Origin: Candidatus Heimdallarchaeota archaeon
Lineage (GTDB): Archaea; Asgardarchaeota; Heimdallarchaeia; Heimdallarchaeales; Heimdallarchaeaceae
Assembly: GCA_019057815.1 (NCBI GenBank)
Contig: JAHLWR010000023.1
Location: 1 to 54,527 of the forward strand
DNA length: 54,527 nucleotides
Reading direction: 5' to 3'
Numbering within the stretch: the stretch's first letter is position 1; each line of letters starts with the position of its first letter. Below the pieces are notes generated by a model, which saw nothing but the letters and a program-made list of their open reading frames with translations, was not told the DNA's origin and searched no databases. Below are positions 9,984 through 29,248 of the stretch, piece after piece. The translations under genes and the position numbers were made by a program.

Positions 9984-11480
9984 TTAAGCTTGTCTAACTA
10001 TATCACCTAATACGTCTTCAGGGTTGTATTTCCACTCTTGAAAGACTGTCTCGTATTTGTCCATAGGTATAGACCATCTTTTGCTATACATCTGATTAAC
10101 AACGAAAATCTTGAGAATATTCTCACTGAAGTCTTCCTCTAATATGTCAATCGCTTCTAGAACTAGGTTTGGTGGAACCCTTAGAACAAAATAATATCCA
10201 GACTTATTATCTGTAAGAAATTGTTCGCTGTAAACTTCAGGAAGGATAGAAAATTTATTGTGATATTCTAGTTGTTTATCATCTGAATTTCGCAAAAAAA
10301 GAACTATATTCGTAAGACTGAAGATATAGGAAGGATTGATTTTATGTGAATAGATATTGCTGTCTTCGAGGTTCTTTATGTGGTTTTTGACTGTCCTTTC
10401 AGAGTATTTGAGGTTATTAGCAATCTGTTTAATTGTCAGATGATTATTATAGAGAATATGATTCAATATTTCTATACCTTCCTTATTTAGATTGATTTTA
10501 TAATCAAGATCATTCGTCTGTGACTGTTGGACAAAAAAAGCTTGTTTGTCTCTAATTTGATTATAAAAACTGAAATGCATCCTGATATCATAAGACTCTA
10601 AATTCCATTCTTTTGATTGTATGTCATAAATTGAATAATTAAAAGACTTCAATCTAGTAGCATTCTTAAACCTTAAAATGAGCGAATCAGCTATCTGAAA
10701 ATCACTTTCGAGATTTTGAACCAATCGATGAAGGTCTCTAGAAACTTCAGGGATAGCAGGAGCAACATATTGGATGAGCAATTTATTGTTGCCTAAATAA
10801 CTCTGGAAAATAGAATGGAGAAAAGGACTGTTAGGTATTTCTTTTAAAATAGCTTCGGACAATGATTTAGAAGATTCAAGGTAGACGCCATATACAGCAA
10901 GATTTAAGCGGGGATAGTTAAGAGAAATTCCTTGAAAGACAATTCCCTTTTCCATTAATCTCCTCTTGTATTTTGATAAGTTTGAGGAATCAATTTCCAA
11001 GTGTTTTAGAAGATTATTGGATTTCAAAGATTGACATTTAAGTGCAGCTAGAAATAAACTAAACTCACGTTTAGATAAAGTAGGTAAAATTTTCGAACAA
11101 TAGTCAAAGAAAATAGAGAAAAAAGTGTTCCAATCAAGAGAATTGGTATCTAATCTATTAAGTTCTAGAAGCTTGTAAGCCAGTTTATTGAAATTATTAT
11201 CAGCAATTAAGGGAATGTAAGAGTAGGGTACTCTATATTGTAAATTCCTGTAAACTCGATTTGTACTTCGTTTTTCCCAAAACTCATTCCATGTAAATTC
11301 GAGAGATTTAATATGTGAAAAATTAGCATATGTTAGAAAACATGCTAGGTCCCAAGCTGGGGAATAAGGTTTGATCTCATACTTAGTTATCAGATTATCA
11401 AAAAAAGGTGATTCCTTTTTGAGTATATTATAAGCTTCTTCGATTATTTCCAACTCAGAAGGTGTAAGTTTTGAAGGCAT
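9984..11480 (-). CDS. Large tandem winged-HTH (Lrp/AsnC-like architecture) transcriptional regulator
   Basis: Two HTH segments: 'LSKREFSLFLAAL..LLKHLEIDSSNLSKYKRRLMEKGIV' and 'LNKEGIEILNHI..TIKQIANNLKYSERTVKNHIKNLE'. Confidence 0.65.
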   Translation of the reverse strand: MPSKLTPSELEIIEEAYNILKKESPFFDNLITKYEIKPYSPAWDLACFLTYANFSHIKSLEFTWNEFWEKRSTNRVYRNLQYRVPYSYIPLIADNNFNKLAYKLLELNRLDTNSLDWNTFFSIFFDYCSKILPTLSKREFSLFLAALKCQSLKSNNLLKHLEIDSSNLSKYKRRLMEKGIVFQGISLNYPRLNLAVYGVYLESSKSLSEAILKEIPNSPFLHSIFQSYLGNNKLLIQYVAPAIPEVSRDLHRLVQNLESDFQIADSLILRFKNATRLKSFNYSIYDIQSKEWNLESYDIRMHFSFYNQIRDKQAFFVQQSQTNDLDYKINLNKEGIEILNHILYNNHLTIKQIANNLKYSERTVKNHIKNLEDSNIYSHKINPSYIFSLTNIVLFLRNSDDKQLEYHNKFSILPEVYSEQFLTDNKSGYYFVLRVPPNLVLEAIDILEEDFSENILKIFVVNQMYSKRWSIPMDKYETVFQEWKYNPEDVLGDIVRQA

Positions 11481-11575: not shown

Positions 11576-11600
11576 GGTAAATGAACATGATTTTTTTACC
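11576..11600 (+). promoter_or_regulatory. 25-bp palindromic operator RGTAA-N15-TTACC (copy 1)
   Basis: GGTAAATGAACATGATTTTTTTACC; same span and ends at 20957-20981 and 25287-25311. Confidence 0.6.
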
Positions 11601-11652
11601 ATTATGAAGCAAAATGAGCAGTTTTATTAAAATTCGAATGATGATAAAAACA

Positions 11653-12378
11653 ATGCTTCAGCTTATAGAATGCACATTAAAACCGGAAGATGATGAGATA
11701 CTAAGCAAAATAGAAAAAGATATGCTAACAACTGATGAGTACTTTATACATAGTAGAGAATTAATGAGTTCATTGCAACGACAATCGGCTAGAACAAAAA
11801 TAAGAACGAATAGACTATCAGAAAATGAGATCAAAAGATTGAATTTCTACTGTTATCCAGCTTACACTCTAGAAAAACCATTGTACCTATCACATAAATA
11901 TGATATAATAACAACTTTGTGTAATCTAAGAGATGAAATTAAAGAAGGAGAAAGCTATATAACAAGAATAACAGAGAATCAAAAAATTCTACAAGATTCT
12001 GTTATTTTTAGATTCTATGTCTTATGTAAAGAAGAAGGAATCTGTCTGCCAGAAAATCTATACTTAGATGAGAAACAGACGTTTTGCTCCCTAAAGATAA
12101 AAGAAATTATCATAGATGAAGTAGTTCTAGAACCAGAATATGCAATAAAGTATAACGTTCCTGTGGTATTAGGTGATTATGACAATGGAAGAAGTATAGA
12201 AAAGGGTAAAGTACATTTCATGAAACCATCTCCTATTGTAACAGAAGTAGTTGGTAAGTTACCATACATTAGAGGAAAAGAAGAGAATACAAAAAGAAGT
12301 GTAAAGATACCTCTACCAGAACATTTCATAGATTGTTGGAAAATCACGAGAGAAGAGGAAAGTAATATTAAAAACTGA
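11653..12378 (+). CDS. Orphan, divergent type I-D Cas5 (Csc1)-like RAMP protein
   Basis: Colinear by-eye resemblance to Csc1: LIECTL/IHSRELMSSL/YCYPA/FRFYV/LPENLYL/MKPSPIV/VKIP versus recalled YRCQL/IHNYALCYAL/YVTPA/FEFFI/LPKWIRLG/MPPVSLI/VKIP; ATG 11653 fits TATA ~11622-11631 (ORF track start is 11614). Confidence 0.6.
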   Translation: MLQLIECTLKPEDDEILSKIEKDMLTTDEYFIHSRELMSSLQRQSARTKIRTNRLSENEIKRLNFYCYPAYTLEKPLYLSHKYDIITTLCNLRDEIKEGESYITRITENQKILQDSVIFRFYVLCKEEGICLPENLYLDEKQTFCSLKIKEIIIDEVVLEPEYAIKYNVPVVLGDYDNGRSIEKGKVHFMKPSPIVTEVVGKLPYIRGKEENTKRSVKIPLPEHFIDCWKITREEESNIKN

Positions 12379-12529
12379 TTCAAATTGTTCGAGCTCTAAG
12401 GGAAATGTTGGTAATAAGCAAGGATTGAAACAAGTAGATGATGGATTTAGAAATAGTTATTTTACAAGAAGATTGGTAATAAAGGTAAAAACTATTGGAA
12501 TTGTACCTTAAAAGAAATTTATTTAGTTC

Positions 12530-12575
12530 AGAAAATGTCTTGACTGAAAGGAGTAAGTCAACCTTCAACTAATGA
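12530..12575 (+). pseudogene. Decayed remnant of a cas4 3' end
   Basis: AGAAAATGTCTTGACTG...GTCAACCTTCAACTAATGAATTTGC mirrors the cas4 end AGAAAATGTGTTGACTG...GTCAACCAAGCAACTATTAATTTGC (~29195-29253). Confidence 0.55.
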
Positions 12576-12673
12576 ATTTGCATATCTTTATAAAGGATTT
12601 TCAAATCGAAGATATGCAACAAAAGAGAAAATAAGATCGAGTCTAATAGAGAAAAACACGAGAAATAGGCTCG
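12575..12673 (+). promoter_or_regulatory. CRISPR leader 1
   Basis: Near-identical to 29247-29346; TTTATAAA TATA box inside an 11-bp inverted repeat. Confidence 0.88.
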
Positions 12674-14147
12674 GTTGCAAATCGTATCTCAAATACTAGA
12701 GAATTGAAATACTCACCGTGTATTCTTTCATATATCCTTTTCCAGTTTGAGTTGCAAATCGTATCTCAAATACTAGAGAATTGAAATACGTAGGAGGTAA
12801 AAATTATCAGACGTCTGATAATTGAGTTGCAAATCGTATCTCAAATACTAGAGAATTGAAATCGTTGATCCATTTCGGATTTATGACCTTCTATCATGGC
12901 AGGTTGCAAATCGTATCTCAAATACTAGAGAATTGAAATATCTTGAGCAAAGAAAGCCCCTATATCCAAACTAAAAGTTGCAAATCGTATCTCAAATACT
13001 AGAGAATTGAAATTCTTAAGAGTTCTAAAGGGCAAATGATAACTATGGATAGTTGCAAATCGTATCTCAAATACTAGAGAATTGAAATCAAATAGACTGG
13101 GCACAAGTAAGGAAAGAAGCAGATAAAAGTTGCAAATCGTATCTCAAATACTAGAGAATTGAAATGAAGTAAGCGAAGAGAGTTACGGCGCGGTAGCGAA
13201 AGTAAGTTGCAAATCGTATCTCAAATACTAGAGAATTGAAATTTAATATAAAGTTTCTTGCCCCCTTTAGTTGTTGGTAAGGTTGCAAATCGTATCTCAA
13301 ATACTAGAGAATTGAAATTAAGGGCGCAAGCGTTCTGCTCTGGTGAGAACCTCACTACGTTGCAAATCGTATCTCAAATACTAGAGAATTGAAATATTAG
13401 AGCGCTAAACTCTGGATTACCCGATAATTCTTGTTGCAAATCGTATCTCAAATACTAGAGAATTGAAATAGCAAGTGTTTCTGTATCTCCTTCCTCAAAG
13501 TCCCAAGCGTTGCAAATCGTATCTCAAATACTAGAGAATTGAAATCTTACGAAAAGCGTAATAATACCTTACGACCAGATTTATGTTGCAAATCGTATCT
13601 CAAATACTAGAGAATTGAAATTAAGTTTAGCCCTAAAACGTGAATAATAAGTCTTGATTTTGTTGCAAATCGTATCTCAAATACTAGAGAATTGAAATCT
13701 TTAAAAGATCTGTCAAACCAACAGTGAGTATATTAGTTGCAAATCGTATCTCAAATACTAGAGAATTGAAATATCGTTGAAGCACTTGTAGCCAAAAAGA
13801 AAGAACTTTTGTTGCAAATCGTATCTCAAATACTAGAGAATTGAAATACAATGGACTCATGTTGGATTGGATAAGGTGGGGGTGTGTTGCAAATCGTATC
13901 TCAAATACTAGAGAATTGAAATATACGAAAAAAGTCCAGTTGCTGAACCTGCAGCATTGTTGCAAATCGTATCTCAAATACTAGAGAATTGAAATTCGTA
14001 GGAGGAAAAACAGATGAGCACCAAAAAGAAGAAGTTGCAAATCGTATCTCAAATACTAGAGAATTGAATTTTTCTGGGGGGGGAAATCTGTAATGCTTGG
14101 GGCTGTGAAAGTTGCAAATCGTATCTCAAATACTAGAGAATTGAAAT
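12674..14147 (+). CRISPR. CRISPR array 1: 20 repeats GTTGCAAATCGTATCTCAAATACTAGAGAATTGAAAT, 19 spacers
   Basis: Counted directly; spacers ~36-40 nt; orientation from leader and ATTGAAAT 3' end. Confidence 0.98.
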
Positions 14148-14405: not shown

Positions 14406-14459
14406 GTGTCAGGACCCCCAGTTTGGCCACCAAATGATCCAGAACCATGGCCACCTTAA
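14406..14459 (+). CDS. Micro-ORF MSGPPVWPPNDPEPWPP (17 aa), candidate CreT-like or ribosome-stalling peptide
   Basis: GGAGGTGA SD at 14392-14399, 6-nt spacing, GTG start, TAA stop inside inverted repeat CCTTAAA/TTTAAGG; GC-rich island in AT-rich intergenic DNA. Confidence 0.55.
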   Translation: MSGPPVWPPNDPEPWPP

Positions 14460-14490
14460 AATTTAAGGCTAAAACATTGAAGCAATTGCA

Positions 14491-17124
14491 TCATTCTCTT
14501 TTTATTTTTTTTGATTTTTTGATTTGGCAAATATTCAAACCACCATTATCTTGATAAATCCACTCTTCTCCTTCTAAAAATATCCCCCAAACTCTATCAA
14601 AACCTCTATCTTTTAGAACTTGTAGACGATTCTTATTGTTTAGTGCTCTTTGCAATTGTTTCAATAAAGTTGTTGAAATCGCAATTGACTGTTCTCTAAA
14701 TTGACGAATAAATTGAAGGTTTTTCCCTGTGTCTAATTCTCTATAGAAGTTTAGGAAGTCTTTTTTAGATTTAAAAATTAACATAGTTTCCTTTACAGAC
14801 TCCTCAATTAATTGAAAAACGTTTTCAAGGCTTTCAATTCTAGTTGCTTTAAGTTCCTCTATTCCCTTTGATGTATCTTTTTTCTTTCCTATTAAAGAGA
14901 GTTCATTGAAATAATCTTGAATTATGCTTCCTAAATCTTTTTCATCAAATTGACTTGATTTCTCGAAAATCTTTTTTGTTTGTTCTATAAGTACTGGATC
15001 ATATATCATTCTGTGATAGGTTACATGCTCTGATTCTGGAATAGTTAATTCCCTAACATAAACAATACCTTTCTTTATATTATGTCTGTTACATCTCCCA
15101 GCTACCTGAATGATTGAATCTAGAGGTGCTAAATCTCTAAAAACATAATCAAAGGATGCATCTACTCCAGCTTCAATGACTTGAGTGCAAACTAAAATTA
15201 TTTTATGCTCTTTTTCTGTTATTTCTTTGATTATTTTCTTTCTATCTTTATAGCTAACAATTGAAGAGAGGAAAAGAATGGTCCTATCGTCAACTGTATC
15301 GATTAAATAATCAAAAAGCTGTCTTGCGCTTTCTTTTGTATTCAAAACAAACATAATTGAGCTGTCAGGATGGTCTTTAACATAAACTTCAGCTTCTGCT
15401 GCAAAATTGTTTAATGTAATCTTGTCTTTTAAGAAATTGATTTCATATCTATTAATACTCTGAGATGAATTATCTGTGTTTATCTCATAGCACTTGCTAA
15501 TCCACTTATTCCAATCGTAAGGAAAGGTTATTGCTTTTGGATATGTTGCACTACCAATTATAACATAACAACTATGAAAAATTGCAAGATGATGTATCAA
15601 TGTTGATATTAATTGCCAGTATTTAACAGGAATTCCTTGTATTTCATCAAAAATTATTATTGAATTTGTTAAACGATGAAATCTGAGATAATGTCTTTTC
15701 TTCCCGCCAAGAATTGAATTCCAGAATGAAACAAAAGTTGTAACAATAACATTAGATTTCCACAGAAATATAAAATCCCTACTTCTCTTGAAGTTTAATT
15801 CCTCACCTTCTTCCTCAAGATAATAACTAAATTCCGCTTCTGCTAAGTGATGGTGGATTGTAAGTAAATCTGTTTGTTTGTGTTTATATTCTTCCTGTAT
15901 TTCCATAGATTTTTCACACAATAATATCTTTGAAAGCTCATCTCCTACTTGATCTGTAATTGAAATGAATGGAAGAGAATAGATAATTCTGGGAATTATT
16001 CCTGTTTTGTTCTCGATTTCTTCTCGGAGTTTCATAGCTATATTCAAATAAGCTAAAGTTTTACCAGAACCTGTGGGATAAGAAATTGTAATGATTTTTT
16101 CATCACTGATATTTTGGTCAAGTAATTCTGTCTCCTCCCATAGTTCTTGTTTTATCTTAAGCAAAGGGTCAGTTTCGTTACAAGTTATTGGTTTGTGTTC
16201 TTGTTCTCTATATTTTCTGACAATATTACCACTAATATGAAATTTCTTCTCGTCAAAAAGAAAATCATGGTTATGAGTATCCGCTATATGTGATTTGGCA
16301 TCCCATTCATCACTATCACACAGAATTGAGTAGTAATTAAGAATTAAAGAAAAGAGTCGTAGGTCTGTGTTTTTCTTCTCCCATAAATCTTCAATATCAA
16401 ATAAAATAAATTCTAATTCATCAATGTCTGATAATTCGTTGAAAACCGTAAATGCTTTTTTGAAAGAATTAGAAAGAACTCGTCTCTTACTGAATAATGA
16501 TTTAAAGTAACAAAGTATTAAATCAGGATATTTGCAGTTAGAGGGGTCAAAATCAGAGAAATCTGAAAAATCAATATTTTCAAAGTTAGGATAATTGACA
16601 TAATAATCTTGTATTTTAGTGATTATGTTTTTAAACACTGAGCGTGTAAAACCCATACCCTTTTCTTTGATCATTGTACTATCTAAACAGTTAACTAGTA
16701 CACCCCTATTATGATGATTAAGAATACTAAATACTATAGCCAATAAATGTAAATCAAAGATATTTGAGTTTCTTTCATCTCTTTTATATACCTCTTCTAG
16801 ATAGCAAGATACGAACAACCAAGCAAAAACAGCACCTATCTGAGTATGATAGCTATGTGAGGTCTGCTCATGAATATTTAAGGATGGATTAACTTTACTC
16901 TGGAAAAAAGGATTTATCTTTCCAATATCGTGGGATATGGCTAGAATTAACATTAAATCTTCTTGAATTTGAGAATCAAACGAGAATAACGAAGATGAAA
17001 GTAAACTCTTCTTTTGCGTGTTTTTCTGTAACTCAATCCAGATATTTTCTATATGTCTAACCAAACTCTGGTTTGGCCTTGCATATAAAAAGAACGAAGG
17101 TTTGCTTATTGTTTTTTGATTCAA
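14491..17124 (-). CDS. cas3: CRISPR-associated helicase/HD nuclease Cas3
   Basis: HDIGK HD motif, PTGSGKT, FDEIQ, SAT, TQVIEAGVD, QVAGRCNR. Confidence 0.96.
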   Translation of the reverse strand: MNQKTISKPSFFLYARPNQSLVRHIENIWIELQKNTQKKSLLSSSLFSFDSQIQEDLMLILAISHDIGKINPFFQSKVNPSLNIHEQTSHSYHTQIGAVFAWLFVSCYLEEVYKRDERNSNIFDLHLLAIVFSILNHHNRGVLVNCLDSTMIKEKGMGFTRSVFKNIITKIQDYYVNYPNFENIDFSDFSDFDPSNCKYPDLILCYFKSLFSKRRVLSNSFKKAFTVFNELSDIDELEFILFDIEDLWEKKNTDLRLFSLILNYYSILCDSDEWDAKSHIADTHNHDFLFDEKKFHISGNIVRKYREQEHKPITCNETDPLLKIKQELWEETELLDQNISDEKIITISYPTGSGKTLAYLNIAMKLREEIENKTGIIPRIIYSLPFISITDQVGDELSKILLCEKSMEIQEEYKHKQTDLLTIHHHLAEAEFSYYLEEEGEELNFKRSRDFIFLWKSNVIVTTFVSFWNSILGGKKRHYLRFHRLTNSIIIFDEIQGIPVKYWQLISTLIHHLAIFHSCYVIIGSATYPKAITFPYDWNKWISKCYEINTDNSSQSINRYEINFLKDKITLNNFAAEAEVYVKDHPDSSIMFVLNTKESARQLFDYLIDTVDDRTILFLSSIVSYKDRKKIIKEITEKEHKIILVCTQVIEAGVDASFDYVFRDLAPLDSIIQVAGRCNRHNIKKGIVYVRELTIPESEHVTYHRMIYDPVLIEQTKKIFEKSSQFDEKDLGSIIQDYFNELSLIGKKKDTSKGIEELKATRIESLENVFQLIEESVKETMLIFKSKKDFLNFYRELDTGKNLQFIRQFREQSIAISTTLLKQLQRALNNKNRLQVLKDRGFDRVWGIFLEGEEWIYQDNGGLNICQIKKSKKIKRE

Positions 17125-17136
17125 TGAATTCCCTCA

Positions 17137-17922
17137 TTATAGAAAAACAATATTTTCTTCTTTGTCATTTATTTGGTATTTGAAAACTCGATTGTTTTTG
17201 AAAGATAATTTAATTCCATCTTCTATATCAGTTTCCTTGAATATTATGTTGACTGTCTTTTCTAAAGAAATTAGTGAATTCTCATATTTTAGAGTGTGAG
17301 GGATGTTATAAATAATTGTAAAACCAAAAATATCTGTATCGATGTCGTCTCCTACAGCTTCTGTACTTATGATTGAGTGAACTTCATGAATACCTGAATC
17401 TTGTCTTATACTTTTGTAATTTCCAATAAAATGGATTTCTGCTAACATATTTGCATGTCCTAAATATGGTGGATAACAGTATTTGTTGTTAGTCAATCGT
17501 TCTTCGAGATCTTCCATTATCTGTAAGTCTTTACAATAAAAATACACCCGAAATTTAACATTTCTCAAGATGTTTAGAAATATTTGAGCGTTGAATCCTC
17601 TAGAGTCCGAGGTTTTAACTCCAAGAGGATCCCCTGGCATTATTATTCTTAATCTATTAGGAAGACTCAAGGTAGTCTTAGTTTGGAGATAGTTAACAAG
17701 CATCTTAGATCTCCAAATAGGATTAAGAATTCTAATAGAAACCATTGAGTTTTTATAATCTTCATTTGACCAATATTCATTTCGTTCAAGCCCAAGAACA
17801 GCTCCTGTAAGTCCTAGAATGACTGTTCTAGAGGGGAAAGGGTAGCTTATGTTTTCACGGGTTGTATCATAAGCTCTGAAATGTGCAAAGTTACCGGACA
17901 CATCAAAAACTATGGTTTCCAT
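17137..17922 (-). CDS. cas5: Type I-B Cas5
   Basis: 'FDVSGNFAHFR..SYPFPSRTVILGLTGAVLG', 'PYLG'. Confidence 0.93.
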   Translation of the reverse strand: METIVFDVSGNFAHFRAYDTTRENISYPFPSRTVILGLTGAVLGLERNEYWSNEDYKNSMVSIRILNPIWRSKMLVNYLQTKTTLSLPNRLRIIMPGDPLGVKTSDSRGFNAQIFLNILRNVKFRVYFYCKDLQIMEDLEERLTNNKYCYPPYLGHANMLAEIHFIGNYKSIRQDSGIHEVHSIISTEAVGDDIDTDIFGFTIIYNIPHTLKYENSLISLEKTVNIIFKETDIEDGIKLSFKNNRVFKYQINDKEENIVFL

Positions 17923-17933
17923 GAGATCACTCT

Positions 17934-18869
17934 TTATAGATCTTTTACCCTAAAACCATTTTCTTCTAACACAGTTTTCATGCTGTTATATTCTTTATCA
18001 CTGTATAGTAGGACAAGATCATTGGTCTCTTTAAGTTCTATTAACTCAATTTGGTCTTGATATAGTTTTAGAGTGTTAATGAACTCATCAATGCAGAGAT
18101 TGGCTTCTTCAGGTCCATTGATGTCTTCTTCTTTAGACAGTTTAAGTTTGTTTTCTAATCCGCCAATTTGGAACTCCTTTTCCTTTGAGACTACTGATAG
18201 AAGTAATCGTGGATTATGGTTAAACTTGGATCTTGTGTTTATTTGTTTTGTACCAAACCACATAGCATTATACAGATGTGTTAAATCTTCCTCACTAAAC
18301 AAAGTTTTTTCGCTATTGTATTCACAAGCGATTCCATGAAAGAGTATCATAGAATAATCTACGTAATGAAATTGTCCCATAGATCCAGCTCCTTGTTCAC
18401 CAGTTGAGGATAAAACAGTGGTTATGCCCATGGTGTTCAGCTCAGGTTTGTTTAGCGACTTGCCAATTCCAAATTGCGTTGGACCAGTGATAGAAACATT
18501 TGCTTTTGGAAGAGTTATAGCTGCACCAAAGGTTCGAACATCTATATATCTTTCAGGTGCCAATCGAATTAATTCATCTCTAGTGAGTTTTTTTGTTTCT
18601 GTAATTCCAAATTCTTTAGATACAATGTCTCTCATGCTCATAACAGTTTGCTGGTCGTCTTTGAATTGTTGTCTAATTAAGACTCTCAGATTATCATCTT
18701 TTTGTGATATCCAAAAATCTCTAATCGTTCTTTTCAATCTAAGATCAGTGACAAGATTATAACCTTGTTCATCCATTCGAGGTCTGTTACCATCATCTGG
18801 ATCACCATTAGGATTTGATCGAGTCACATCATAGATAAACAATATTTCTCTTCTATTCTGTAATAACAT
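17934..18869 (-). CDS. cas7: Type I-B Cas7 (Csh2 family)
   Basis: 'SNPNGDPDDGNRPRMD', 'DLRLKRTIRD', 'DVRTFGA', 'TGPTQFG'; ATG 18869 follows AGGTGA SD. Confidence 0.95.
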   Translation of the reverse strand: MLLQNRREILFIYDVTRSNPNGDPDDGNRPRMDEQGYNLVTDLRLKRTIRDFWISQKDDNLRVLIRQQFKDDQQTVMSMRDIVSKEFGITETKKLTRDELIRLAPERYIDVRTFGAAITLPKANVSITGPTQFGIGKSLNKPELNTMGITTVLSSTGEQGAGSMGQFHYVDYSMILFHGIACEYNSEKTLFSEEDLTHLYNAMWFGTKQINTRSKFNHNPRLLLSVVSKEKEFQIGGLENKLKLSKEEDINGPEEANLCIDEFINTLKLYQDQIELIELKETNDLVLLYSDKEYNSMKTVLEENGFRVKDL

Positions 18870-19311
18870 TTTTTTCACCTTCTATACTTTTCTTATCAAT
18901 TTTAACAAAATATGAAAATCCCATCATAAAAGCAAGCGACAATTCATCATAAGTACTTTCCCAATTGTCCTTGCTTATTAGTTCACTAATCTGGTTCCTA
19001 AGAAATGCTCCAGTTTGCTTTGTCTCCTTATTCTTTGATATTAGTCTTTTAACTACCGAATTGCATTTATCTAGGATTTTCAGTAGTTGCTCTCTATTTA
19101 ATCTCTGAGTGTACATAGGAAGTTTTGTATATAGACTAGTTGTTCGGAGAACTGTTTTTTCTTTTGATGCTAAGTAACCGTAGTATCTCCCAATTAAGAA
19201 AGATATTTTTCGATCATCTTTGTCAAAAAATTCTCTTTGAAGATATTCAGCTTCTTTGCTCTCTCTTTTCTTTTTATTTAAATCCTCTATATTCTTTTCA
19301 TTTATGACCAT
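18853..19311 (-). CDS. Cas11-like small subunit (equivalent to the C-terminal domain of Cas8b), separately encoded
   Basis: Alpha-helical; 'SFLIGRY' and terminal 'LAFMMGF' resemble the Cas8b/TM1802 C-terminus; lies between cas8 and cas7. Confidence 0.7.
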   Translation of the reverse strand: MVINEKNIEDLNKKKRESKEAEYLQREFFDKDDRKISFLIGRYYGYLASKEKTVLRTTSLYTKLPMYTQRLNREQLLKILDKCNSVVKRLISKNKETKQTGAFLRNQISELISKDNWESTYDELSLAFMMGFSYFVKIDKKSIEGEKNVITE

Positions 19312-19315
19312 TTTT

Positions 19316-20866
19316 TCACCTTAAAATATCTGCTATAAATAGAAGTTGATGAGTAAAATGAAAGATTTGCATATCTCTATTAAAGAGGAATCTTTCTTTC
19401 CATACATCTTTATAGTTAGAAGTGATAATCTTTCTGAATCTTGGATTAAGAACGTTATTAGCTTGTTTATAAAAATCTCTTTTAGATATTGTTCGACTGT
19501 TAAATAGAGACTGAATTATCTTTCTGCCTAATTTTTCGCCAAAAGTAGAAACTAAGAATCCAAATTCGAATTTAATAGTTTTGTTGAAAAAGTTATCAAC
19601 CTCCTCAATCCAGTCAACAATTTGTTTAATCCTGTATTTACTGCCATAGATAATATCTTCAATGAATTTCTTTTTATTGCCAGAAACTTGTTTCTCTACA
19701 AAATAAAAATCCATGATAGCCATATCACTTTCTTTAGCGCATTGTAAGATGTTAAGTAAATCTACATCTTGGCTAGATGCTAAAATCCCCCGGTCTTCAT
19801 TAAATTTAATATTATTCTTTCTTTGTTTGATTTGTTTGATAAGTGATTGTTTTTGTTGTTTACTTATATCTGATAATTTAGAAGATAATTCTTCTATTTT
19901 AAGTCTAAGCGTTGTCTGCTTTGTTTCATAATGATTCTTTCTGAATAATTCCAATTTTTGTACAAACATCATAATTTTCTCGGAGGATTCTACAAGAGGG
20001 ATAATGCTGTGATGAACCGTTTTAATGTCTCTAGAGCTTTTCCTTTCTTTATAAGCTTCAAATTTTAAAACTGTATCCATTATATTATAACCATTTCTAA
20101 AGAAATTTTCACAATCTTCACAGATCATAGCTTGATATGATTTAGAAAAACCCAATTGGAAGCTTACTTGATCGATTGAAAAAAGATTAAAGAATTTGCA
20201 CTTATCCATAGATATTAGATTGTCTTTTTTAATTCCACATGCAAGACAAACCAAAGCTTCACTCTTTTTAGAGCTTTTTTTACTCAAATTTTCGAGACTT
20301 AGATATATTTCTCTGAACTTGTCTATTTCTCCCGGATATAAGAGTCCATTCTCTTTTCTAAATATAAATAGTAGGAATCTAGGAGCATCTTTTGAAATGA
20401 TTTTTTCTCCTTTTTTGTTTGTTTCTAAGTGATTTTCCTTGATATAATCATATATCCTTTTTTCTAATTGCTCTCTATTGTTAAGCAACCAATTATTAAA
20501 TCTGAAGGGTAGACTATTCTGTTCTAGAATAATGTCATCTGGTAGAATTATTTTGTCAAAATTAACTAAATCTGAAGGACTGAAATCATCGAAATTTTTA
20601 TTTGTACCTTTTTGCTGTTTAATACTACAAAAAGGAGAATAATTCCTACTTGATCCAGTGCTTAATCCTGGAAGATATTTATCAATCATCGATTCTTGGT
20701 AATCCGATAGGTTCAAAGCTCCTATCTCAGAAGCATCCAAGTCTATAACAACATCTAGAAGTTTTTTCGTTCTAATATTCTTCTTTTGTTCATCTAATAG
20801 GATAGAAAGTTCATCTTTATCACCTATCATAGCTTTTCCGATTTTTGTTAATGAACTTACTATCAT
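19316..20866 (-). CDS. cas8b: Type I-B large subunit Cas8b (lacking the C-terminal Cas11 part)
   Basis: First gene of effector operon; CLAC...FSIDQVSF...ICEDC Zn finger typical of Cas8b/TM1802. Confidence 0.8.
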   Translation of the reverse strand: MIVSSLTKIGKAMIGDKDELSILLDEQKKNIRTKKLLDVVIDLDASEIGALNLSDYQESMIDKYLPGLSTGSSRNYSPFCSIKQQKGTNKNFDDFSPSDLVNFDKIILPDDIILEQNSLPFRFNNWLLNNREQLEKRIYDYIKENHLETNKKGEKIISKDAPRFLLFIFRKENGLLYPGEIDKFREIYLSLENLSKKSSKKSEALVCLACGIKKDNLISMDKCKFFNLFSIDQVSFQLGFSKSYQAMICEDCENFFRNGYNIMDTVLKFEAYKERKSSRDIKTVHHSIIPLVESSEKIMMFVQKLELFRKNHYETKQTTLRLKIEELSSKLSDISKQQKQSLIKQIKQRKNNIKFNEDRGILASSQDVDLLNILQCAKESDMAIMDFYFVEKQVSGNKKKFIEDIIYGSKYRIKQIVDWIEEVDNFFNKTIKFEFGFLVSTFGEKLGRKIIQSLFNSRTISKRDFYKQANNVLNPRFRKIITSNYKDVWKERFLFNRDMQIFHFTHQLLFIADILR

Positions 20867-20956
20867 TGAATACCTCTTCTACTTGATATGACTTCTAATG
20901 AAATCAAGTGAAAGAAACTAAGTAAATATAAATACTATTGGCATTTATAGCAAATT

Positions 20957-20981
20957 GGTAAAAAAAAGAACTATAATTACC
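20957..20981 (-). promoter_or_regulatory. 25-bp palindromic operator (copy 2) upstream of cas8b
   Basis: Sense strand GGTAATTATAGTTCTTTTTTTTACC, ~24 nt before TTTATATT. Confidence 0.6.
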
Positions 20982-20987
20982 TTTTTT

Positions 20988-22436
20988 TCATTTATTAAAA
21001 ATAACGGATTTAACATAACTGTTATCCAAATTCAAAGCATACATTTTTTTTGTTTGGGTTTCTTTTACATAAATAAGAAGAATAAGATCCTTATCTGCAA
21101 GGGCTGAAAGAATGTCAGGTAAAGGTTTTCTTAATTCACTTATAGTAATTTTCACATTATAATGATTATACCCTTCCCAACTGAATAAGTTATCACGAAT
21201 GTGATTAGCTGTTATTGCTGCAAAGTAATTCTGGTTTCTGATGAATTTTTCATCTAAGCGCTGTTTTTGTAGTTCATCAAAAAAAACACTAAGTAAGTAG
21301 TTGAACATGAGCTCTTCCCTTTTATTGGAAAAAGGGTAAACTTTGTCAAATCTTTTCTGAGAGAATCTTTTTCTTAGAGAACTAACAAAAATATTACTCT
21401 TTGAAAGCAAAAGTAGTAGTTCATAGGAATCCCAGGAATCAATCACATCAAAAACCATATTTTCTAATTCACGGAAGCTCTTAGTGTAATTGTATATCCC
21501 AGAAATAGTGGAAAATAGCTTTCTTTGATAGTTTTTAGGTAGATAAAACGATCTAAAATCTTCAGAAGAGTAAAGTAAAGGATCCAATACTGAGAAAATA
21601 AATTCAACTAATTCAATTTTCTGAAGAGGGGAGAGTTTTGAGACAACACCTGCTTTTATTAAATATTTCATTCTAGAAAGCAAAGTTAAAAGAACAAAAC
21701 TATATAATATAGCGGTTTTAACTCTCTGTCGTAACTTATAGGGTGGTTTTTCATTTCCATAAATGATTAAGAATTGGTTTTTGTTTAGAATATGAAGCCA
21801 CCCACATTCAAATCTTGGTGTATCAAAAATATCCACATTAATTCCTAATTCATTATAGGTATCAATAGTTGTTTCAATGACAGTAAAGATATCTGAGAAC
21901 TCAAGTGAGGGTTTATCATGAGTAAAAACTGAATCCATAATAGGAATTTTAAACTTACGAGTTAGAGAATGGAAAGATTCTCGAATACAACGAATTTGTT
22001 TTTCAAAATCAAGTTGAATTTGTTTAGATTTAAGTGACATAGTTAGTTTCAACTCAGAAATTAGACACGGGTAGAGTCGTGAGGATAAAAAACAATTAGG
22101 ATGCTTATACTGGAGATTTTTAATTTTCCACTTTTTAATTCTGGTTGTAAAAGGGAGCAAAGGTCGAAGAGGATGATTATCATAAACAGGAATTCTGATA
22201 TTTCTAATGTAAAAGTATGAATCGTTTCCATGAGGACAAAGATATGGACCTAATCCCCTAATGTAAGGTAAAGAGATATCAGTTGGTTTATCTTTAAAAT
22301 CAAAAAAAAGTTGTTGAGCATTTCCAGTATTAGATTTAAGAAAATCAAAAGAAACTCGAATATTAGAATCCCATAAAATTTCAGTAAAAGGAAGAAATCT
22401 GTATATATGGATTAGAATATCCTCCAAAATTATCAC
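20988..22436 (-). CDS. Hypothetical protein with probable C-terminal winged HTH
   Basis: 482-aa ORF; tail 'TANHIRDNL..ISELRKPLPDILSALADKDLILL..KKMYALN' is wHTH-like; real start may be TTG 22427 after AGGTGA. Confidence 0.6.
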   Translation of the reverse strand: MIILEDILIHIYRFLPFTEILWDSNIRVSFDFLKSNTGNAQQLFFDFKDKPTDISLPYIRGLGPYLCPHGNDSYFYIRNIRIPVYDNHPLRPLLPFTTRIKKWKIKNLQYKHPNCFLSSRLYPCLISELKLTMSLKSKQIQLDFEKQIRCIRESFHSLTRKFKIPIMDSVFTHDKPSLEFSDIFTVIETTIDTYNELGINVDIFDTPRFECGWLHILNKNQFLIIYGNEKPPYKLRQRVKTAILYSFVLLTLLSRMKYLIKAGVVSKLSPLQKIELVEFIFSVLDPLLYSSEDFRSFYLPKNYQRKLFSTISGIYNYTKSFRELENMVFDVIDSWDSYELLLLLSKSNIFVSSLRKRFSQKRFDKVYPFSNKREELMFNYLLSVFFDELQKQRLDEKFIRNQNYFAAITANHIRDNLFSWEGYNHYNVKITISELRKPLPDILSALADKDLILLIYVKETQTKKMYALNLDNSYVKSVIFNK

Positions 22437-25286: not shown

Positions 25287-25311
25287 AGTAAAAATCAATC
25301 TTATTTTTACC
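25287..25311 (+). promoter_or_regulatory. 25-bp palindromic operator (copy 3) upstream of cas6
   Basis: AGTAAAAATCAATCTTATTTTTACC, ~23 nt before TTTTATTT. Confidence 0.6.
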
Positions 25312-25374
25312 ATTTTATTGCATATAGCTAATACTTTTATTTTGATTTTTGGTAATATTGACAAGTGTAGATTG

Positions 25375-26271
25375 ATGATTGATAAACAAGTAGAACAAAC
25401 TTTTCCAGAATGTTCAAGTGTAATTGAGAACATTAGTCTATTAGGTGGAGAGCTTAAGCTAAAGTTTTTAGTTCTTCAAGATACGATTTTTCCAGCATTT
25501 ACAGGTTCTATTGTTCGAGCATCTTTTCTTCATTTTTTATCTGAAAAAGATCCTCTTCTAGCTGACATTCTCCATAAGGATACTGAAGTTCGTCCTTATG
25601 CTATTTCACAAATAAAAGCAGTAAAACCTAATAAAAGCCGTACAAATCGTAATGAAATACTACTTCGTTCAGGGGAATTTTTCTCTTTTTCTCTACGTTT
25701 CTTAGATTCAGAATTTCTTGACAAAACGGTGAAAATATTCGTTAACGAACCGAAGCCTTCATTTTATCTTTTGAACCAAGATTTTCCTGTAATTTCATTT
25801 GAGTATACAAAACCCTCTTTTGACATAAGTCAACAGGATTTTATGGTTAAAATTTTTTTTAACACTCCTACATATTTCTCATCACTTCGAACTGCTCATC
25901 CTATGCTTTTTCCTGAACCAAAATATTTCTTTATGACTATTGCAAAGAATTGGAATAAATTCAACAGCAAATATGGTCAGATTCCCTTGGATCTTCTAAA
26001 GAAATGGATAGAAGAGAATGTCGTCATTAATGATTACAAATTGCAAACTAAAAGAGTATATATTGGAAAAAGGAATCCTATTCTTGGTTTTAAAGGGTGG
26101 GTTGTATATAGATTTTTGATGCAGGATAATATTTTTGGTTGGATTGGGATATTGTGTGAATACGCTAAACTTTGCAACGTTGGTGGTAATAGAACTGCTG
26201 GTATGGGTGATATTGGATTAAAATGGATTAAAGAGAAAAAAGATGTACTTAGAAAAGAAAGAAAAGACTGA
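25375..26271 (+). CDS. cas6: CRISPR endoribonuclease Cas6
   Basis: 'LADILH..VRPYAIS', 'FNTPTYF', 'GFKGWV', G-rich loop 'NVGGNRTAGMG'; start placed at ATG 25375 from promoter position (ORF track start 25318). Confidence 0.93.
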   Translation: MIDKQVEQTFPECSSVIENISLLGGELKLKFLVLQDTIFPAFTGSIVRASFLHFLSEKDPLLADILHKDTEVRPYAISQIKAVKPNKSRTNRNEILLRSGEFFSFSLRFLDSEFLDKTVKIFVNEPKPSFYLLNQDFPVISFEYTKPSFDISQQDFMVKIFFNTPTYFSSLRTAHPMLFPEPKYFFMTIAKNWNKFNSKYGQIPLDLLKKWIEENVVINDYKLQTKRVYIGKRNPILGFKGWVVYRFLMQDNIFGWIGILCEYAKLCNVGGNRTAGMGDIGLKWIKEKKDVLRKERKD

Positions 26272-26326
26272 GTACCAAAATAAATGAAATACGTTATGTA
26301 GAATTTAGAATGATGAGCGATAAAGG

Positions 26327-27271
26327 ATGGTTAAAAGTGAGAAAAAAGAGAAAAATAATCAAATAACGAGATTTTCAACAGAATTCTCGACCTTATTTGA
26401 TGATGAAAGCAATGAGGATTTTTCATTTTTACCTGTAGTGTCTTCGTATTCAATTCTTCCAATTGATTCTGATTGTTTTGTAAGTTACATAATTATTAAA
26501 GAAAACCAAGAAGTGATGACACGTTGTTTACTTGATGGATTGTTGTATCTCACTTTTGGAGAGAAAAGATGTTTGAAATGCGGGGCGCTAAACCTTCAGA
26601 AAGATGAAAGATATTGTAAATACTGTGATGATGATGAAGACAAAGCTTATCTTAAATGCTTATTTCATTCACCTTTGAAAGTCTATGGTAACAAATGCTT
26701 TGCTGATCATCCTTTATGCAGTTATGCTGACAATATCTACAGGTGTTTTGATAGATATTATTTGTATATTGGAAGAATAGGGGAACAAATCAAAACTGGA
26801 ATTAGTAGATATAGAAATAGACCACTGAAATTCAAGAGGTTGGTAGAACAGGGATTAAATGAAGCATGGATCATCTATCCTTTTGAATCGCTCTCTGAAG
26901 TAACAAGTTTTGAAAGACTGCTTATAGATGAATATGGGATAGAAGAAAGGATAACTTTTGCAGAAAAGGTAGATAATCTAATCTATCCTTCAACAATTTC
27001 CTTAGCTAGCTTTTTCACTGAAAATCAATTTAAAGAGCTTTTTCCAGATAAAAAAATTATTAAGAAAGAATATTATAGGGAGGGATTTTTCAATGATTAT
27101 CTATCGTCAAGTTTTGAAATAGTTTTGAAGCAAGAAATTGATGAAATACAAGGAAATGTTGTTTTTTCTCAAGGAAATATAGGCGTTGTTAAACAAAAAT
27201 ACCAACTAACTTTTTTCGACATCAGTAAACTTATTGGAAAAACCGTTAAAACCGAGGGAGACTTGTGGTAA
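26327..27271 (+). CDS. DUF2797-like protein (Zn-binding Cys pairs + GIY-YIG-like motif)
   Basis: CLKC..CKYC; 'YYLYIG..IKTGISR..RLVEQG' resembles the recalled DUF2797 'YVYLA..KVGITR..RWIDQG'; overlaps cas1 start. Confidence 0.65.
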   Translation: MVKSEKKEKNNQITRFSTEFSTLFDDESNEDFSFLPVVSSYSILPIDSDCFVSYIIIKENQEVMTRCLLDGLLYLTFGEKRCLKCGALNLQKDERYCKYCDDDEDKAYLKCLFHSPLKVYGNKCFADHPLCSYADNIYRCFDRYYLYIGRIGEQIKTGISRYRNRPLKFKRLVEQGLNEAWIIYPFESLSEVTSFERLLIDEYGIEERITFAEKVDNLIYPSTISLASFFTENQFKELFPDKKIIKKEYYREGFFNDYLSSSFEIVLKQEIDEIQGNVVFSQGNIGVVKQKYQLTFFDISKLIGKTVKTEGDLW

Positions 27272-28293
27272 TAGTAGTTTTAAATAAACATGGAACAAAA
27301 ATAGGTAAAAGTCATGAATTATTCAAATTTGGTATTCCAGGAAAGAGCTATTATACAGATGAACTGATACCAGCTGAGCAGATAGAGGAGATCATAGTTG
27401 AATGTAATTCTTCGTTAACTAGCGGAGCAATAAATTTAGCTGCTAAATATGCTATACCAATTCTTTTTGTCAAAGGTAAAGATATAGTGTCATGTATTCA
27501 TCCATTAACTGGGCATGGGACGGTAAGAATAAGAAGAGAGCAGATATTAGCATACCATGATGAGAGAGGGGTAATATTTTCTACTTCAATAATTGAAGCA
27601 GCAAGCAATAATAAAGTTAGATTATTGAAACAAATGAAAAGAACAAGGGATTTAGAAGAAAACATAGAAAGAGAAATAGCAGGAGAGATAGAGGGTATAG
27701 AGAGTATTATCAAAGAACTTAGAAAAAGTGTTAGGATTATTGAACAACATAGGAATTATCTCTTCGCAAAAGAAGCAGAGATAACAAAAAAATACTACAT
27801 TTGTATAGGAAAGCTTCTAAAACCAACAATACTTTTCGAAGGGAGAACAAGACGACCACCAAAAGACGCTGTTAATGCAATGTTAAGTTATGGATATGCT
27901 ATTTTAACAGCGCAAATGTTGAAAGCAACAATAATTGCAGGATTAGAACCGCATGCAGGATTCTTGCATACAGATAGAGCAGGAAAAGTGTCATTTGTTC
28001 TAGACATTATAGAGATATTCAGACAACCTGTAGTAGATAGGCTTGTTTTCAACCTTTTGAGTAAGAAAAAAATAAAAGAAGAGGACTTCAACAAAAGTGA
28101 AAAAGATTGTTTAATGAAGGAAGATACAAAGAAAAAGTATCTAGATGAACTTTTTCAAAGATTCAGAGAAAAGAATGTTGAATATAAAAGTAAGATAACC
28201 TCTTTTAGAAGAGTGTTCATAGAAGAAGCGAGAAAAGCAGGAAAGTTTTTTGTGCAAAAAGGAAAATACCAACCTTTTGTGTATAAGTATTAG
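27265..28293 (+). CDS. cas1: CRISPR integrase Cas1
   Basis: 'EAEITKKYY', 'RTRRPPKDAVNAMLSYGY', 'GFLH', 'DIIEIFRQPVVD'. Confidence 0.97.
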   Translation: MVIVVLNKHGTKIGKSHELFKFGIPGKSYYTDELIPAEQIEEIIVECNSSLTSGAINLAAKYAIPILFVKGKDIVSCIHPLTGHGTVRIRREQILAYHDERGVIFSTSIIEAASNNKVRLLKQMKRTRDLEENIEREIAGEIEGIESIIKELRKSVRIIEQHRNYLFAKEAEITKKYYICIGKLLKPTILFEGRTRRPPKDAVNAMLSYGYAILTAQMLKATIIAGLEPHAGFLHTDRAGKVSFVLDIIEIFRQPVVDRLVFNLLSKKKIKEEDFNKSEKDCLMKEDTKKKYLDELFQRFREKNVEYKSKITSFRRVFIEEARKAGKFFVQKGKYQPFVYKY

Positions 28294-28298
28294 AAGGA

Positions 28299-28697
28299 AT
28301 GAAAATGGAAAGTATAATTTGTTATGATATAGTAGAAGATAAGAAAAGGGCAGAGGTGGCTAAAATATGTCAAAACAAAGGATTTTCAAGGATACAATAT
28401 TCAGTCTATTTTGGAGATATAACAAGAAATGTGCTAGAAAGTACAATGTTAGAGATAGGAGATATTCTAAAAGGGTATGAAGGGAATGTGGTAGCAATAG
28501 AAATATGTGAAAAATGTGCTAAAAAGAAAAAAATCATCCAGATGAAAAAAGAAGAGAATAAACAAAAAGATGAAGATAAAGGAGAAAAAGAAAATGGAAA
28601 GGAACTGAAAAAAAAGAAAAAAAAGAAGAAGAAAAGAAATGTTATAGACAAAGAAAGGATGGATGAGATAGCAAAAAAGGGAGTGATAATGCTGTGA
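28299..28697 (+). CDS. cas2: Cas2 with Lys-rich C-terminal extension
   Basis: 'ICYDIVEDKKR..RIQYSVYFG', CEKC, then a ~50-aa charged tail with K9. Confidence 0.93.
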   Translation: MKMESIICYDIVEDKKRAEVAKICQNKGFSRIQYSVYFGDITRNVLESTMLEIGDILKGYEGNVVAIEICEKCAKKKKIIQMKKEENKQKDEDKGEKENGKELKKKKKKKKKRNVIDKERMDEIAKKGVIML

Positions 28698-29248
28698 CTA
28701 AGCCAATAATTTACTTTGAAATGATAAGGCAGCATTTTTACTGTAAAAGGATAAATTATTGGAGATATTGTATGAGATACATGGGATACCAAAGTTACAA
28801 AATGGAAAAAGGAGCAGAATATCATAAAAAAAGAGAAAAAAGAAATCAGAGTTATGATCAACAAATTTGGGTAGAAAATGAAAACTTAAGTCTAGCTGGA
28901 TATGTAGATTACATGAGAAAAAAACAAAAGGAAGAATGGATAATAGGGGACTTCAAACAGAAGAAACCTTATCAACAAAAAATCCCTGAACACTATAAAA
29001 TGCAACTGGTAGCAGAAGTAATGGCAATGGACATAGGAGAAAGAGTAAGAGAAGAAGTAGAAATACAAATAAAAAATGGAAAAGTCATAAAAGAGAAAAT
29101 AAGAGAAGAAGAAAAGCGAAAAGTATTGGAAGCAATAAAAGAAATACAACTAATCATAGAAACAGAATTATTACCAGAGGAAACAGAACAAGAAAGAAAA
29201 TGTGTTGACTGTGAATATAGGAATATATGTCAACCAAGCAACTATTAA
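28694..29248 (+). CDS. cas4: Cas4 nuclease
   Basis: YCKR, GYVD, DFK, QL, CVDCEYRNIC Fe-S ligands. Confidence 0.9.
   Translation: MTKPIIYFEMIRQHFYCKRINYWRYCMRYMGYQSYKMEKGAEYHKKREKRNQSYDQQIWVENENLSLAGYVDYMRKKQKEEWIIGDFKQKKPYQQKIPEHYKMQLVAEVMAMDIGERVREEVEIQIKNGKVIKEKIREEEKRKVLEAIKEIQLIIETELLPEETEQERKCVDCEYRNICQPSNY

What the first reader, a model, noticed from the sequence alone, without database searches (positions are those of the whole stretch)
11653..12378. Orphan type I-D-like Cas5 (Csc1) retained beside a type I-B system
The ORF follows the Csc1 motif order along its length, but the G-rich 'RLGK' loop reads 'YLDE'. No cas10d or csc2 is present in the window. It is intact, has its own promoter carrying the cas-operon operator, and is divergent from a large wHTH regulator, while the DNA after it is decayed cas debris. 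Inference: an exapted solo Cas5 that could bind the 8-nt crRNA handle, act as an alternative Cascade subunit, sort crRNAs between repeat variants, or inhibit the system.
Basis: partly seen in the sequence, partly recalled or inferred. Interest (0 to 1): 0.7.

Follow-up and report, generated by a model that had tools for sequence, protein, structure and literature searches.

The report
Orphan, fast-evolved Cas5d relic in Heimdallarchaeon
A Heimdall (Asgard) archaeon with a type I-B CRISPR system has kept one intact but heavily rewritten gene from a lost type I-D system; selection still preserves it and it appears wired to the same control site as the working cas genes, so it probably has a new, untested job.

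Summary
The ORF at 11653-12378 (+, 241 aa) is a real, full-length homolog of type I-D Cas5/Csc1. It matches no Cas5 model directly. It does hit a bona fide Heimdallarchaeal Csc1 at E=2e-33 (35% identity). Profile-profile comparison gives 99.8% probability, and the AlphaFold model's best structural match is Cas5d (7SBA chain H, Z=16.1).

It is an orphan: no Csc2, Cas10d or Cas3' was found in the 95%-complete genome. The related Heimdall I-D locus L015 reads B, A | putative cas10d-csc2-csc1-cas3'-cas6-X. The window keeps homologs of A, B, csc1, cas6 and X, but its effector genes are type I-B.

The orphan sits on a roughly five-fold longer branch than its sister Csc1s. It has changed 35 of 67 family-conserved positions, including RxGKK to YLDEK. 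Even so, it is intact in four lineages of one genus, with dN/dS of 0.16-0.28, like its neighbour.

A palindromic box, GTAA-N15-TTACCAWT, lies upstream of a TATA-like box at this gene, at cas8b and at cas6.

"Cas debris" downstream is only partly right. There is a ~45-nt cas4 remnant, then a leader and a live 20-repeat array.

The function is untested. My best guess is a repurposed accessory or modulatory subunit.

The parts
11653..12378 (+). Orphan Csc1/Cas5d-derived gene (241 aa)
   Evidence: phmmer E=2e-33 to the bona fide Csc1 P0004. hhalign 99.8% against a Csc1 profile. Cas5d is the top structural match. dN/dS 0.16-0.28.
12061..12075 (+). YLDEK, in place of the RxGKK loop that is invariant in six Csc1 proteins
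   Evidence: Alignments; column tally.
11576..11603 (+). Palindromic box GGTAAA-N13-TTTACC followed by ATT (candidate operator)
   Evidence: 3 of 11 genome-wide matches lie at cas promoters. The box is conserved in four orthologous promoters.
11621..11632 (+). TATA-like box TTTTATTAAAAT, centred about 26 nt before the ATG (a leaderless mRNA is inferred)
   Evidence: Sequence. Conserved in the orthologs. The position rule for archaeal promoters is general knowledge, so this is inference.
9984..11480 (-). Divergent 498-aa wHTH protein 'A'
   Evidence: HTH_24 match at residues 337-376. 38.5% identical to the gene that is divergent from the putative cas10d in the Heimdall I-D locus L015.
12530..12572 (+). 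Remnant of a cas4 3' end
   Evidence: blastn: window 12530-12700 against 29195-29373, 89% over 180 nt.
12573..12673 (+). CRISPR leader 1 (conserved about 100 nt, shared with the leaders of arrays 2 and 3)
12674..14147 (+). CRISPR array 1: 20 repeats of 37 nt ending in ATTGAAAT
14491..20866 (-). Type I-B effector genes: cas3, cas5b (17137-17922), cas7b, a Cas11-like ORF split off cas8b, and cas8b
   Evidence: NCBIfam, Pfam and PADLOC matches.
20954..20981 (-). Second copy of the box, upstream of cas8b
20988..22436 (-). 482-aa protein 'B', first gene of the I-B operon
   Evidence: 26% identical (E=1e-39) to the partner of A in L015. Same position in G007.
25287..25314 (+). Third copy of the box, upstream of cas6
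25375..29248 (+). cas6, unknown X (26327-27271), cas1, cas2 and cas4
   Evidence: NCBIfam matches. cas6 and X are 44% identical to their L015 counterparts.

Best explanation
The gene is the only surviving piece of a type I-D effector module in a modular CRISPR locus of a Heimdallarchaeal genus.

Shown:
- It descends from the Heimdall Csc1 (Cas5d) clade.
- Its I-D partners (Cas10d, Csc2, Cas3') were not found in this genome, and a complete type I-B effector with its own Cas5b sits in the same locus.
- After separating from ordinary Csc1s it changed very fast. About half of the family-conserved positions changed, and the protein went from basic to acidic relative to its nearest relatives.
- It now evolves under purifying selection, as an intact gene paired with the wHTH gene A.
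- Its promoter carries the same palindromic box, at the same distance from a TATA-like box, as the cas8b and cas6 promoters.

Inferred:
- It is expressed together with the resident cas genes.
- It no longer works as the canonical crRNA-capping Cas5 of a I-D Cascade.
- It acts as a repurposed accessory or modulatory RAMP subunit of the resident crRNA/type I-B machinery. The most likely route is protein contacts or weakened handle binding, that is, a host-encoded decoy or adaptor Cas5.

Odds: I give the identity and relic part about 0.9, 'functional gene' about 0.8, and the decoy/adaptor mechanism itself about 0.3.
For: Homology: phmmer E=1.9e-33 to P0004 in a search of 1.8 billion proteins. P0004, P0005, P0006 and P0008 score above the TIGR03159 cut-off. 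BLASTP gives 1e-29 to the Csc1 of L015. hhalign gives 99.8% over 224 columns. The family profile hits Cas5d 7SBA_H at 2e-13.

Fold: Foldseek E=1e-8 and VIA Z=16.1 to Cas5d, with the next best at about Z=10.

Context of true relatives: csc2 lies immediately upstream in L008, L010, L012, L013, L015 and L017.

Shared locus parts with L015: A 38.5%, B 26%, cas6 44%, X 44%.

Orphan status.

Tree: the gene nests with the Heimdall Csc1s P0004 and P0010 (support 83/91). Its stem is 2.17 substitutions per site, against 0.34-0.51 for the sisters.

Change: 35 of 67 conserved columns differ; pI is 5.6-6.2 against 9.4-9.7 for the nearest relatives.

Selection: dN/dS 0.16-0.28, differences skewed to third codon positions, Fisher p=2e-8. 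The neighbour A has 0.19-0.39.

Synteny: the A|gene pair is conserved in G001, L005 and L006, although the downstream DNA differs in L006.

Operator.

Precedent: the Cas5 homolog AcrIB3 joins type I-B Cascade as a faulty subunit (bioRxiv 10.1101/2023.06.24.545427, read).
Against: No direct Cas5, Pfam or NCBIfam hit exists for the protein itself.

The confident structure model depends on an alignment that includes true Csc1s. With the four close orthologs alone the model fails, at pLDDT 31.

The acidic shift is not decisive, because some bona fide Csc1s are also acidic (P0006 and P0009, pI 4.75).

The operator motif was defined after looking at the promoters, and its binding protein is unknown.

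Only four closely related lineages are available, so purifying selection is measured over a short time span.

Nothing shows which molecule the protein binds.
Confidence: 0.7

Rival explanations
1. It is a still-canonical Cas5. It binds the 8-nt 5' handle ATTGAAAT and replaces or alternates with Cas5b in type I-B Cascade, as an alternative subunit.
For: The Cas5d fold core and the C-terminal motifs (MxPSPI, PYI, IPxPxHF) are retained. All arrays keep the same handle. The gene appears co-regulated with cas8b and cas6 through the shared box.
Against: The invariant RxGKK, DFxFFVSxEFN and IHNY motifs are changed, and the charge is reversed relative to the nearest relatives. The locus has an intact Cas5b scoring above its model cut-off. 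Cas8b is unrelated to Cas10d, which is the natural large-subunit partner of Cas5d (general knowledge).
Confidence: 0.15
2. It is a functionless relic that has simply not yet been broken.
For: All partners are gone. Half of the conserved positions have changed. The gene is restricted to one genus. G001 holds a second, truncated copy.
Against: The ORF is intact in four lineages. dN/dS of 0.16-0.28 equals that of the neighbouring gene. Differences cluster at third codon positions. The promoter, box and start codon are conserved.
Confidence: 0.12
3. It works in trans with a type I-D system encoded elsewhere in the genome.
For: The assembly is 95% complete in 48 contigs, so about 5% is unseen.
Against: There are no Csc1, Csc2 or Csc3 model hits. 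tblastn with four Cas10d-like queries (three of them incomplete at a contig end), a 605-aa unassigned protein from the same position in L010, five Csc2s and one Cas3' from Heimdall and other I-D loci also finds nothing. The A2 profile finds no Csc1 in 59 related genomes either.
Confidence: 0.03

Closest known systems
Type I-D Cas5d/Csc1 (TIGR03159, PF26241; structure 7SBA/7SBB chain H)
   Same: Full-length homology, the same predicted RAMP fold, similar length, and a position next to a CRISPR array whose repeats end in ATTGAAAT. In I-D Cascade, Cas5d recognises the 8-nt 5' handle beside Cas10d (PMC9123187).
   Different: It scores below every Csc1 model. It lacks the invariant RxGKK, DFxFF and HNY motifs. 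No csc2, cas10d or cas3' accompanies it. It has its own promoter and a very long branch, and it is acidic where its nearest relatives are basic.
AcrIB3, a Cas5 homolog of Listeria prophages that joins type I-B Cascade as a faulty subunit (bioRxiv 10.1101/2023.06.24.545427)
   Same: A stand-alone, diverged Cas5 homolog that coexists with a type I-B system which has its own Cas5.
   Different: AcrIB3 derives from Cas5b and lies in anti-defence loci of mobile elements. This gene derives from Cas5d. It lies in the host's own CRISPR locus in conserved synteny and appears co-regulated with the cas operons. No inhibitory activity is shown.
Heimdallarchaeal type I-D loci (L015, L016, L017; Csc1 P0011 is named Cas5/Csc1 of Heimdallarchaeaceae by NCBI)
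   Same: They share the wHTH gene A divergent from the effector operon, plus gene B, cas6 and gene X. The orphan nests within their Csc1 clade.
   Different: Those loci carry the full run of putative cas10d-csc2-csc1-cas3'. The window has type I-B effector genes and keeps only csc1.

Membership tests
Type I-D Cas5/Csc1 (TIGR03159 / PF26241) | Scores above the curated model cut-off (41.4 bits) | tested here: not met
   No hit even at E<=10 for the protein or its three close orthologs. No whole-genome hit either.
Type I-D Cas5/Csc1 (TIGR03159 / PF26241) | Full-length sequence homology to family members | tested here: met
   E=1.9e-33 to P0004, which scores 61 bits on TIGR03159. BLASTP 1e-29. hhalign 99.8%.
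Type I-D Cas5/Csc1 (TIGR03159 / PF26241) | Cas5d-type RAMP fold | tested here: met
   Model pLDDT 76. Foldseek 1.4e-8 and VIA Z=16.1 over 200 aligned residues (rmsd 5.7) to 7SBA_H. Caveat: the alignment used for the model contains true Csc1s, and the model built from the target clade alone failed.
Type I-D Cas5/Csc1 (TIGR03159 / PF26241) | Family-invariant motifs (DFxFFVSxEFN, IHNY, YNSI, RxGKK) | tested here: not met
   35 of 67 conserved columns have changed, including all of these motifs in part.
Type I-D Cas5/Csc1 (TIGR03159 / PF26241) | Encoded in an operon with csc2 (cas7d) and cas10d | tested here: not met
   The upstream neighbour is a divergent wHTH gene. No csc2 or cas10d was found in the genome.
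Type I-D Cas5/Csc1 (TIGR03159 / PF26241) | Binds the 8-nt crRNA 5' handle within Cascade | not testable with these tools
   This needs biochemistry.
Type I-B Cas5b (TIGR02592) | Model match | tested here: not met
   The orphan gives no hit. The locus's real Cas5b is 17137-17922, at 122 bits against a cut-off of 97.
Cas-derived anti-CRISPRs (AcrIB3 type) | Encoded on a virus, plasmid or anti-defence island | tested here: not met
   Conserved chromosomal synteny with A in four lineages. GC and GC3 match the neighbouring genes.
Cas-derived anti-CRISPRs (AcrIB3 type) | Inhibits interference by joining Cascade | not testable with these tools
   This needs pull-down and interference assays.

The most novel reading that the evidence does not exclude
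This is a host-encoded Cas5-derived modulator. On this reading the archaeon domesticated the last subunit of a lost type I-D system as a built-in brake or adaptor for its type I-B Cascade. For example, it could build Cas8b-less or non-degrading complexes that serve the CRISPR-derived guide cassettes another agent reported in front of surface-protein genes in this window. It would be switched on together with the cas operons through the shared operator.
Probability: 0.15. Interest if true: 0.75.

Novelty: new variant of a known kind. Interest (0 to 1): 0.5.

Why it matters
Effector modules of class 1 CRISPR systems are known to be swapped around a conserved adaptation and processing core. What happens to the leftover subunits is rarely documented. 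Here a single Cas5d survived the loss of all its partners. It went through a burst of change and then settled under purifying selection, with a promoter that looks wired into the resident cas regulon. That is the signature of domestication, not decay.

If it modulates type I-B Cascade, it would be a cellular counterpart of the phage Cas5-derived anti-CRISPR AcrIB3. It would also give a handle on CRISPR regulation in Asgard archaea, where nothing has been tested experimentally. If it does nothing, it is simply a well-dated example of module replacement.

Tried and rejected
- Direct family scans of the protein (Pfam, NCBIfam, PADLOC) gave nothing except a sub-threshold DUF7403 hit.
- The word-indexed protein search found only two close orthologs. 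The exhaustive search was needed to reach Csc1.
- ESM Atlas look-alikes were uninformative, with scores of 0.82.
- Complex prediction of the orphan with the window's Cas7b gave no verdict, score 0.00. That is no evidence either way.
- AlphaFold with only the four close orthologs failed, at pLDDT 31.
- tblastx and tblastn of 12379-12529 against all Cas proteins of the window and of L015 gave only chance-level matches, so that stretch cannot be called cas debris.
- The search for related loci with the alignment had no usable conserved block. With the single protein it returned only the G001 ortholog, which named the organism.
- The idea that A and B are dedicated cas regulators is weakened. In G012 and G017 the A-B pair has no recognisable cas genes within about 10 kb.
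- The idea that the window's cas6 is specifically I-D-derived was dropped. The same cas6-A-X-cas1-cas2-cas4 core serves I-B plus III-A in G007.
- Sorting crRNAs by repeat variant is rejected as unlikely, because the handle is identical in all arrays.

Full report
**What is there**

The window holds a large CRISPR locus of an AT-rich archaeon; the genome is 32.8% GC. The sister genome that carries the 93%-identical ortholog is titled 'Candidatus Heimdallarchaeota archaeon'. The gene order is as follows.
- wHTH gene A, 9984-11480 (-).
- The ORF in question, 11653-12378 (+).
- A ~45-nt cas4 3' remnant, a ~100-nt leader and array 1 with 20 repeats.
- On the minus strand: cas3, cas5b, cas7b, a Cas11-like ORF split off cas8b, cas8b, and an unknown 482-aa gene B.
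- A leader and array 2 with 32 repeats.
- cas6, an unknown gene X, cas1, cas2 and cas4.
- A leader and array 3 with 32 repeats.

The effector genes are type I-B by NCBIfam (Cas5b 122 bits, Cas7/Csh2 200 bits) and by PADLOC (Cas8b).

**Identity of the ORF**

The protein matches no Cas5 model in Pfam, NCBIfam or PADLOC. The word-indexed search found only two close orthologs. The exhaustive phmmer search of 1.8 billion representatives found P0004 (35% identity, E=1.9e-33) and weaker hits P0005 to P0008. All align from M14, which is window 11653.

P0004, P0005, P0006 and P0008 score above the TIGR03159 (Cas5/Csc1) cut-off. In each locus I examined, the homolog (P0004, P0006-P0008, P0010, P0011) lies immediately after csc2, and in L012, L013, L015 and L017 the order is large upstream gene, csc2, csc1, cas3'. 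A profile of the orphan clade alone aligns with a profile of six bona fide Csc1s over 224 columns at 99.8% probability, E=2.5e-28. The joint profile hits Cas5d of the Synechocystis I-D Cascade (7SBA_H) at 2.3e-13.

An AlphaFold model built on the 12-sequence alignment has pLDDT 76 and pTM 0.75. Its best matches are Cas5d, at Foldseek 1.4e-8 and VIA Z=16.1 over 200 residues. The next best are other Cas5 and RAMP proteins at about Z=10. There is a caveat. With only the four near-identical orthologs the prediction fails (pLDDT 31). The fold evidence is therefore not independent of the sequence homology.

**How it differs from Csc1**

Of 67 columns conserved in at least 5 of 6 true Csc1s, 35 are changed in the orphan clade.
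- DFxFFVSxEFN has become DDEILSKIEKD.
- IHNY has become IHSR.
- YNSI has become YDII.

The pI fell from 9.4-9.7 in the nearest relatives to 5.6-6.2. Other true Csc1s are also acidic, so charge alone proves nothing.

In a maximum-likelihood tree the orphan clade nests with the Heimdall Csc1s P0004 and P0010 (support 83/91). Its stem is 2.17 substitutions per site, against 0.34-0.51 for the sisters.

**Orphan status and origin**

The 95%-complete genome gave no hit to the Csc1, Csc2 or Csc3 models. The Csc3 model also rang in none of the 14 control genomes, so it is a weak test. For that reason I ran tblastn with four Cas10d-like queries (three of them incomplete at a contig end), a 605-aa unassigned protein from the same position in L010, five Csc2s and one Cas3' taken from the I-D loci found here. 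Nothing matched. The family profile found no Csc1 in 59 related genomes.

The Heimdall I-D locus L015 reads B(-), A(-) | putative cas10d, csc2, csc1, cas3', cas6, X. The putative cas10d is 902 aa, has no family hit and is named from its position. The window has homologs of several of these.
- A: 38.5% identity, E=7e-112.
- B: 26% identity.
- csc1: 27.7% identity.
- cas6: 44% identity.
- X: 44% identity.

The complete genome G007 has the same core (cas6, A, X, cas1, cas2, cas4, array). There it comes with B-I-B and type III-A effector modules and no csc1. These loci are therefore modular. In the window's genus a I-D module beside A was lost except for csc1.

The promoter in front of the putative cas10d in L015 has TTTTACCAT followed about 21 nt later by a TATA box. 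This resembles the orphan's promoter. It is suggestive, not conclusive, of an in-place deletion of cas10d-csc2.

The cas4 remnant before leader 1 is 89% identical at the DNA level to the present cas4-leader 3 junction. It is therefore more likely a recent duplication or conversion than ancient I-D debris.

**Is it still a gene?**

The ORF is intact in four lineages: G000, G001, L005 and L006/L007. Pairwise dN/dS is 0.16-0.28, with differences concentrated at third codon positions. For G000 against L006 the counts are 31.5 of 144 synonymous sites and 31.5 of 579 non-synonymous sites, Fisher p=2e-8. The neighbour A shows 0.19-0.39.

In L006 the DNA downstream of the gene is unrelated, yet the A|gene pair and its promoter are conserved. 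GC and GC3 equal those of the neighbouring cas genes. G001 also holds a truncated second copy, consisting of the last ~30 codons plus downstream DNA, directly behind an array trailer.

**Regulation**

I noticed TTTTTACCATT upstream of this gene and of cas6, with a one-mismatch copy upstream of cas8b. I tested that description.

GTAA-N15-17-TTACCAWT occurs 11 times in the genome. Three of these lie in sense orientation 17-20 nt upstream of TATA-like boxes of the three transcription units. The site and the TATA-like box are conserved in all four orthologous promoters. The TATA-like box at 11621-11632 fits a leaderless mRNA starting at the 11653 ATG; this is inference. The motif was chosen after inspecting the promoters, and its binding protein is unknown. 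It is absent from the G007 locus.

**Mechanism**

Established knowledge is that Cas5d caps the 8-nt crRNA 5' handle next to Cas10d (PMC9123187 and PMC10212523). All arrays here share the handle ATTGAAAT. A handle binder could therefore not sort crRNAs by array.

Several facts bear on function. The natural large-subunit partner is gone. The locus has its own Cas5b. The basic invariant loop is replaced by acidic residues. Yet the gene is conserved and apparently co-regulated. From these I infer a repurposed accessory or modulatory subunit, and not a canonical Cas5 (about 0.3 for the decoy/adaptor mechanism). The precedent is AcrIB3, a phage Cas5 homolog that joins type I-B Cascade and disables it. 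Here, though, the gene is chromosomal and syntenic. A complex prediction with Cas7b returned no verdict.

**Verdict**

The result is a new, derived, orphan variant of a known family. Its evolutionary story is clear and its function is untested. Interest is moderate.

Noticed in passing
window 14407-14460 (+); L015 about 3870-3920: A 17-codon Pro/Trp micro-ORF (...WPPNDPEPWPP) with an upstream GGAGGTGA. It is conserved, with synonymous changes, in the intergenic region between A and the putative cas10d of the Heimdall I-D locus L015. An earlier agent already followed it up as part of a module with A and B.
   Followed up: partly
window 9984-11480 (-) and 20988-22436 (-); L034 10713-13669; L035 8826-11767: The wHTH protein A and the unknown protein B form a tandem pair in L015, G012 and G017. 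In G012 and G017 there are no recognisable cas genes nearby. In the window the two are separated, and B heads the type I-B operon, as it does in G007.
   Followed up: partly
L004 (G001 contig C146) 1500-1694: A CRISPR array trailer is followed directly by a truncated copy of the last ~30 codons of the csc1-like gene plus its downstream DNA, 79% identical over 197 nt. This points to array-mediated rearrangement of a second copy.
   Followed up: partly
window 26327-27271 (+): The unknown 314-aa gene X lies between cas6 and cas1 and has no family hit. It is conserved in the same position in L015 (44%) and in G007 (53% to the L015 copy). It looks like a lineage-specific adaptation-module gene.
   Followed up: partly
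window 18853-19311 (-); G007 locus (L050 12075-12491): The Cas11-like ORF split off the cas8b 3' end is also a separate ORF in the complete genome G007, at 66% identity. The split is therefore conserved and not a sequencing error.
   Followed up: partly
G000 contigs C7:6886 (-), C1:4915 (-), C33:68588 (+): Further matches to the operator pattern lie upstream of small proteins that look like wHTH proteins by eye (117 aa and 176 aa). One of these could be the regulator that binds the cas box.
   Followed up: no
L010 7375-10669: P0007 is a very divergent Csc1-like protein (14.7 bits on TIGR03159). It also reads YLQED where Csc1 has RxGKK. It sits after a short Csc2 (237 aa) beside a type III-B module, so it may be a second degenerate I-D variant.
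   Followed up: no
window 36256-36444, 38175, 43266, 48743: A three-repeat mini-array at 36256-36444 and, at 38175, 43266 and 48743, single matches to the 12-nt repeat end, which keeps the ATTGAAAT handle (two with one mismatch), lie among surface-protein (beta-helix/NosD-like) genes. Another agent has studied these.
   Followed up: no
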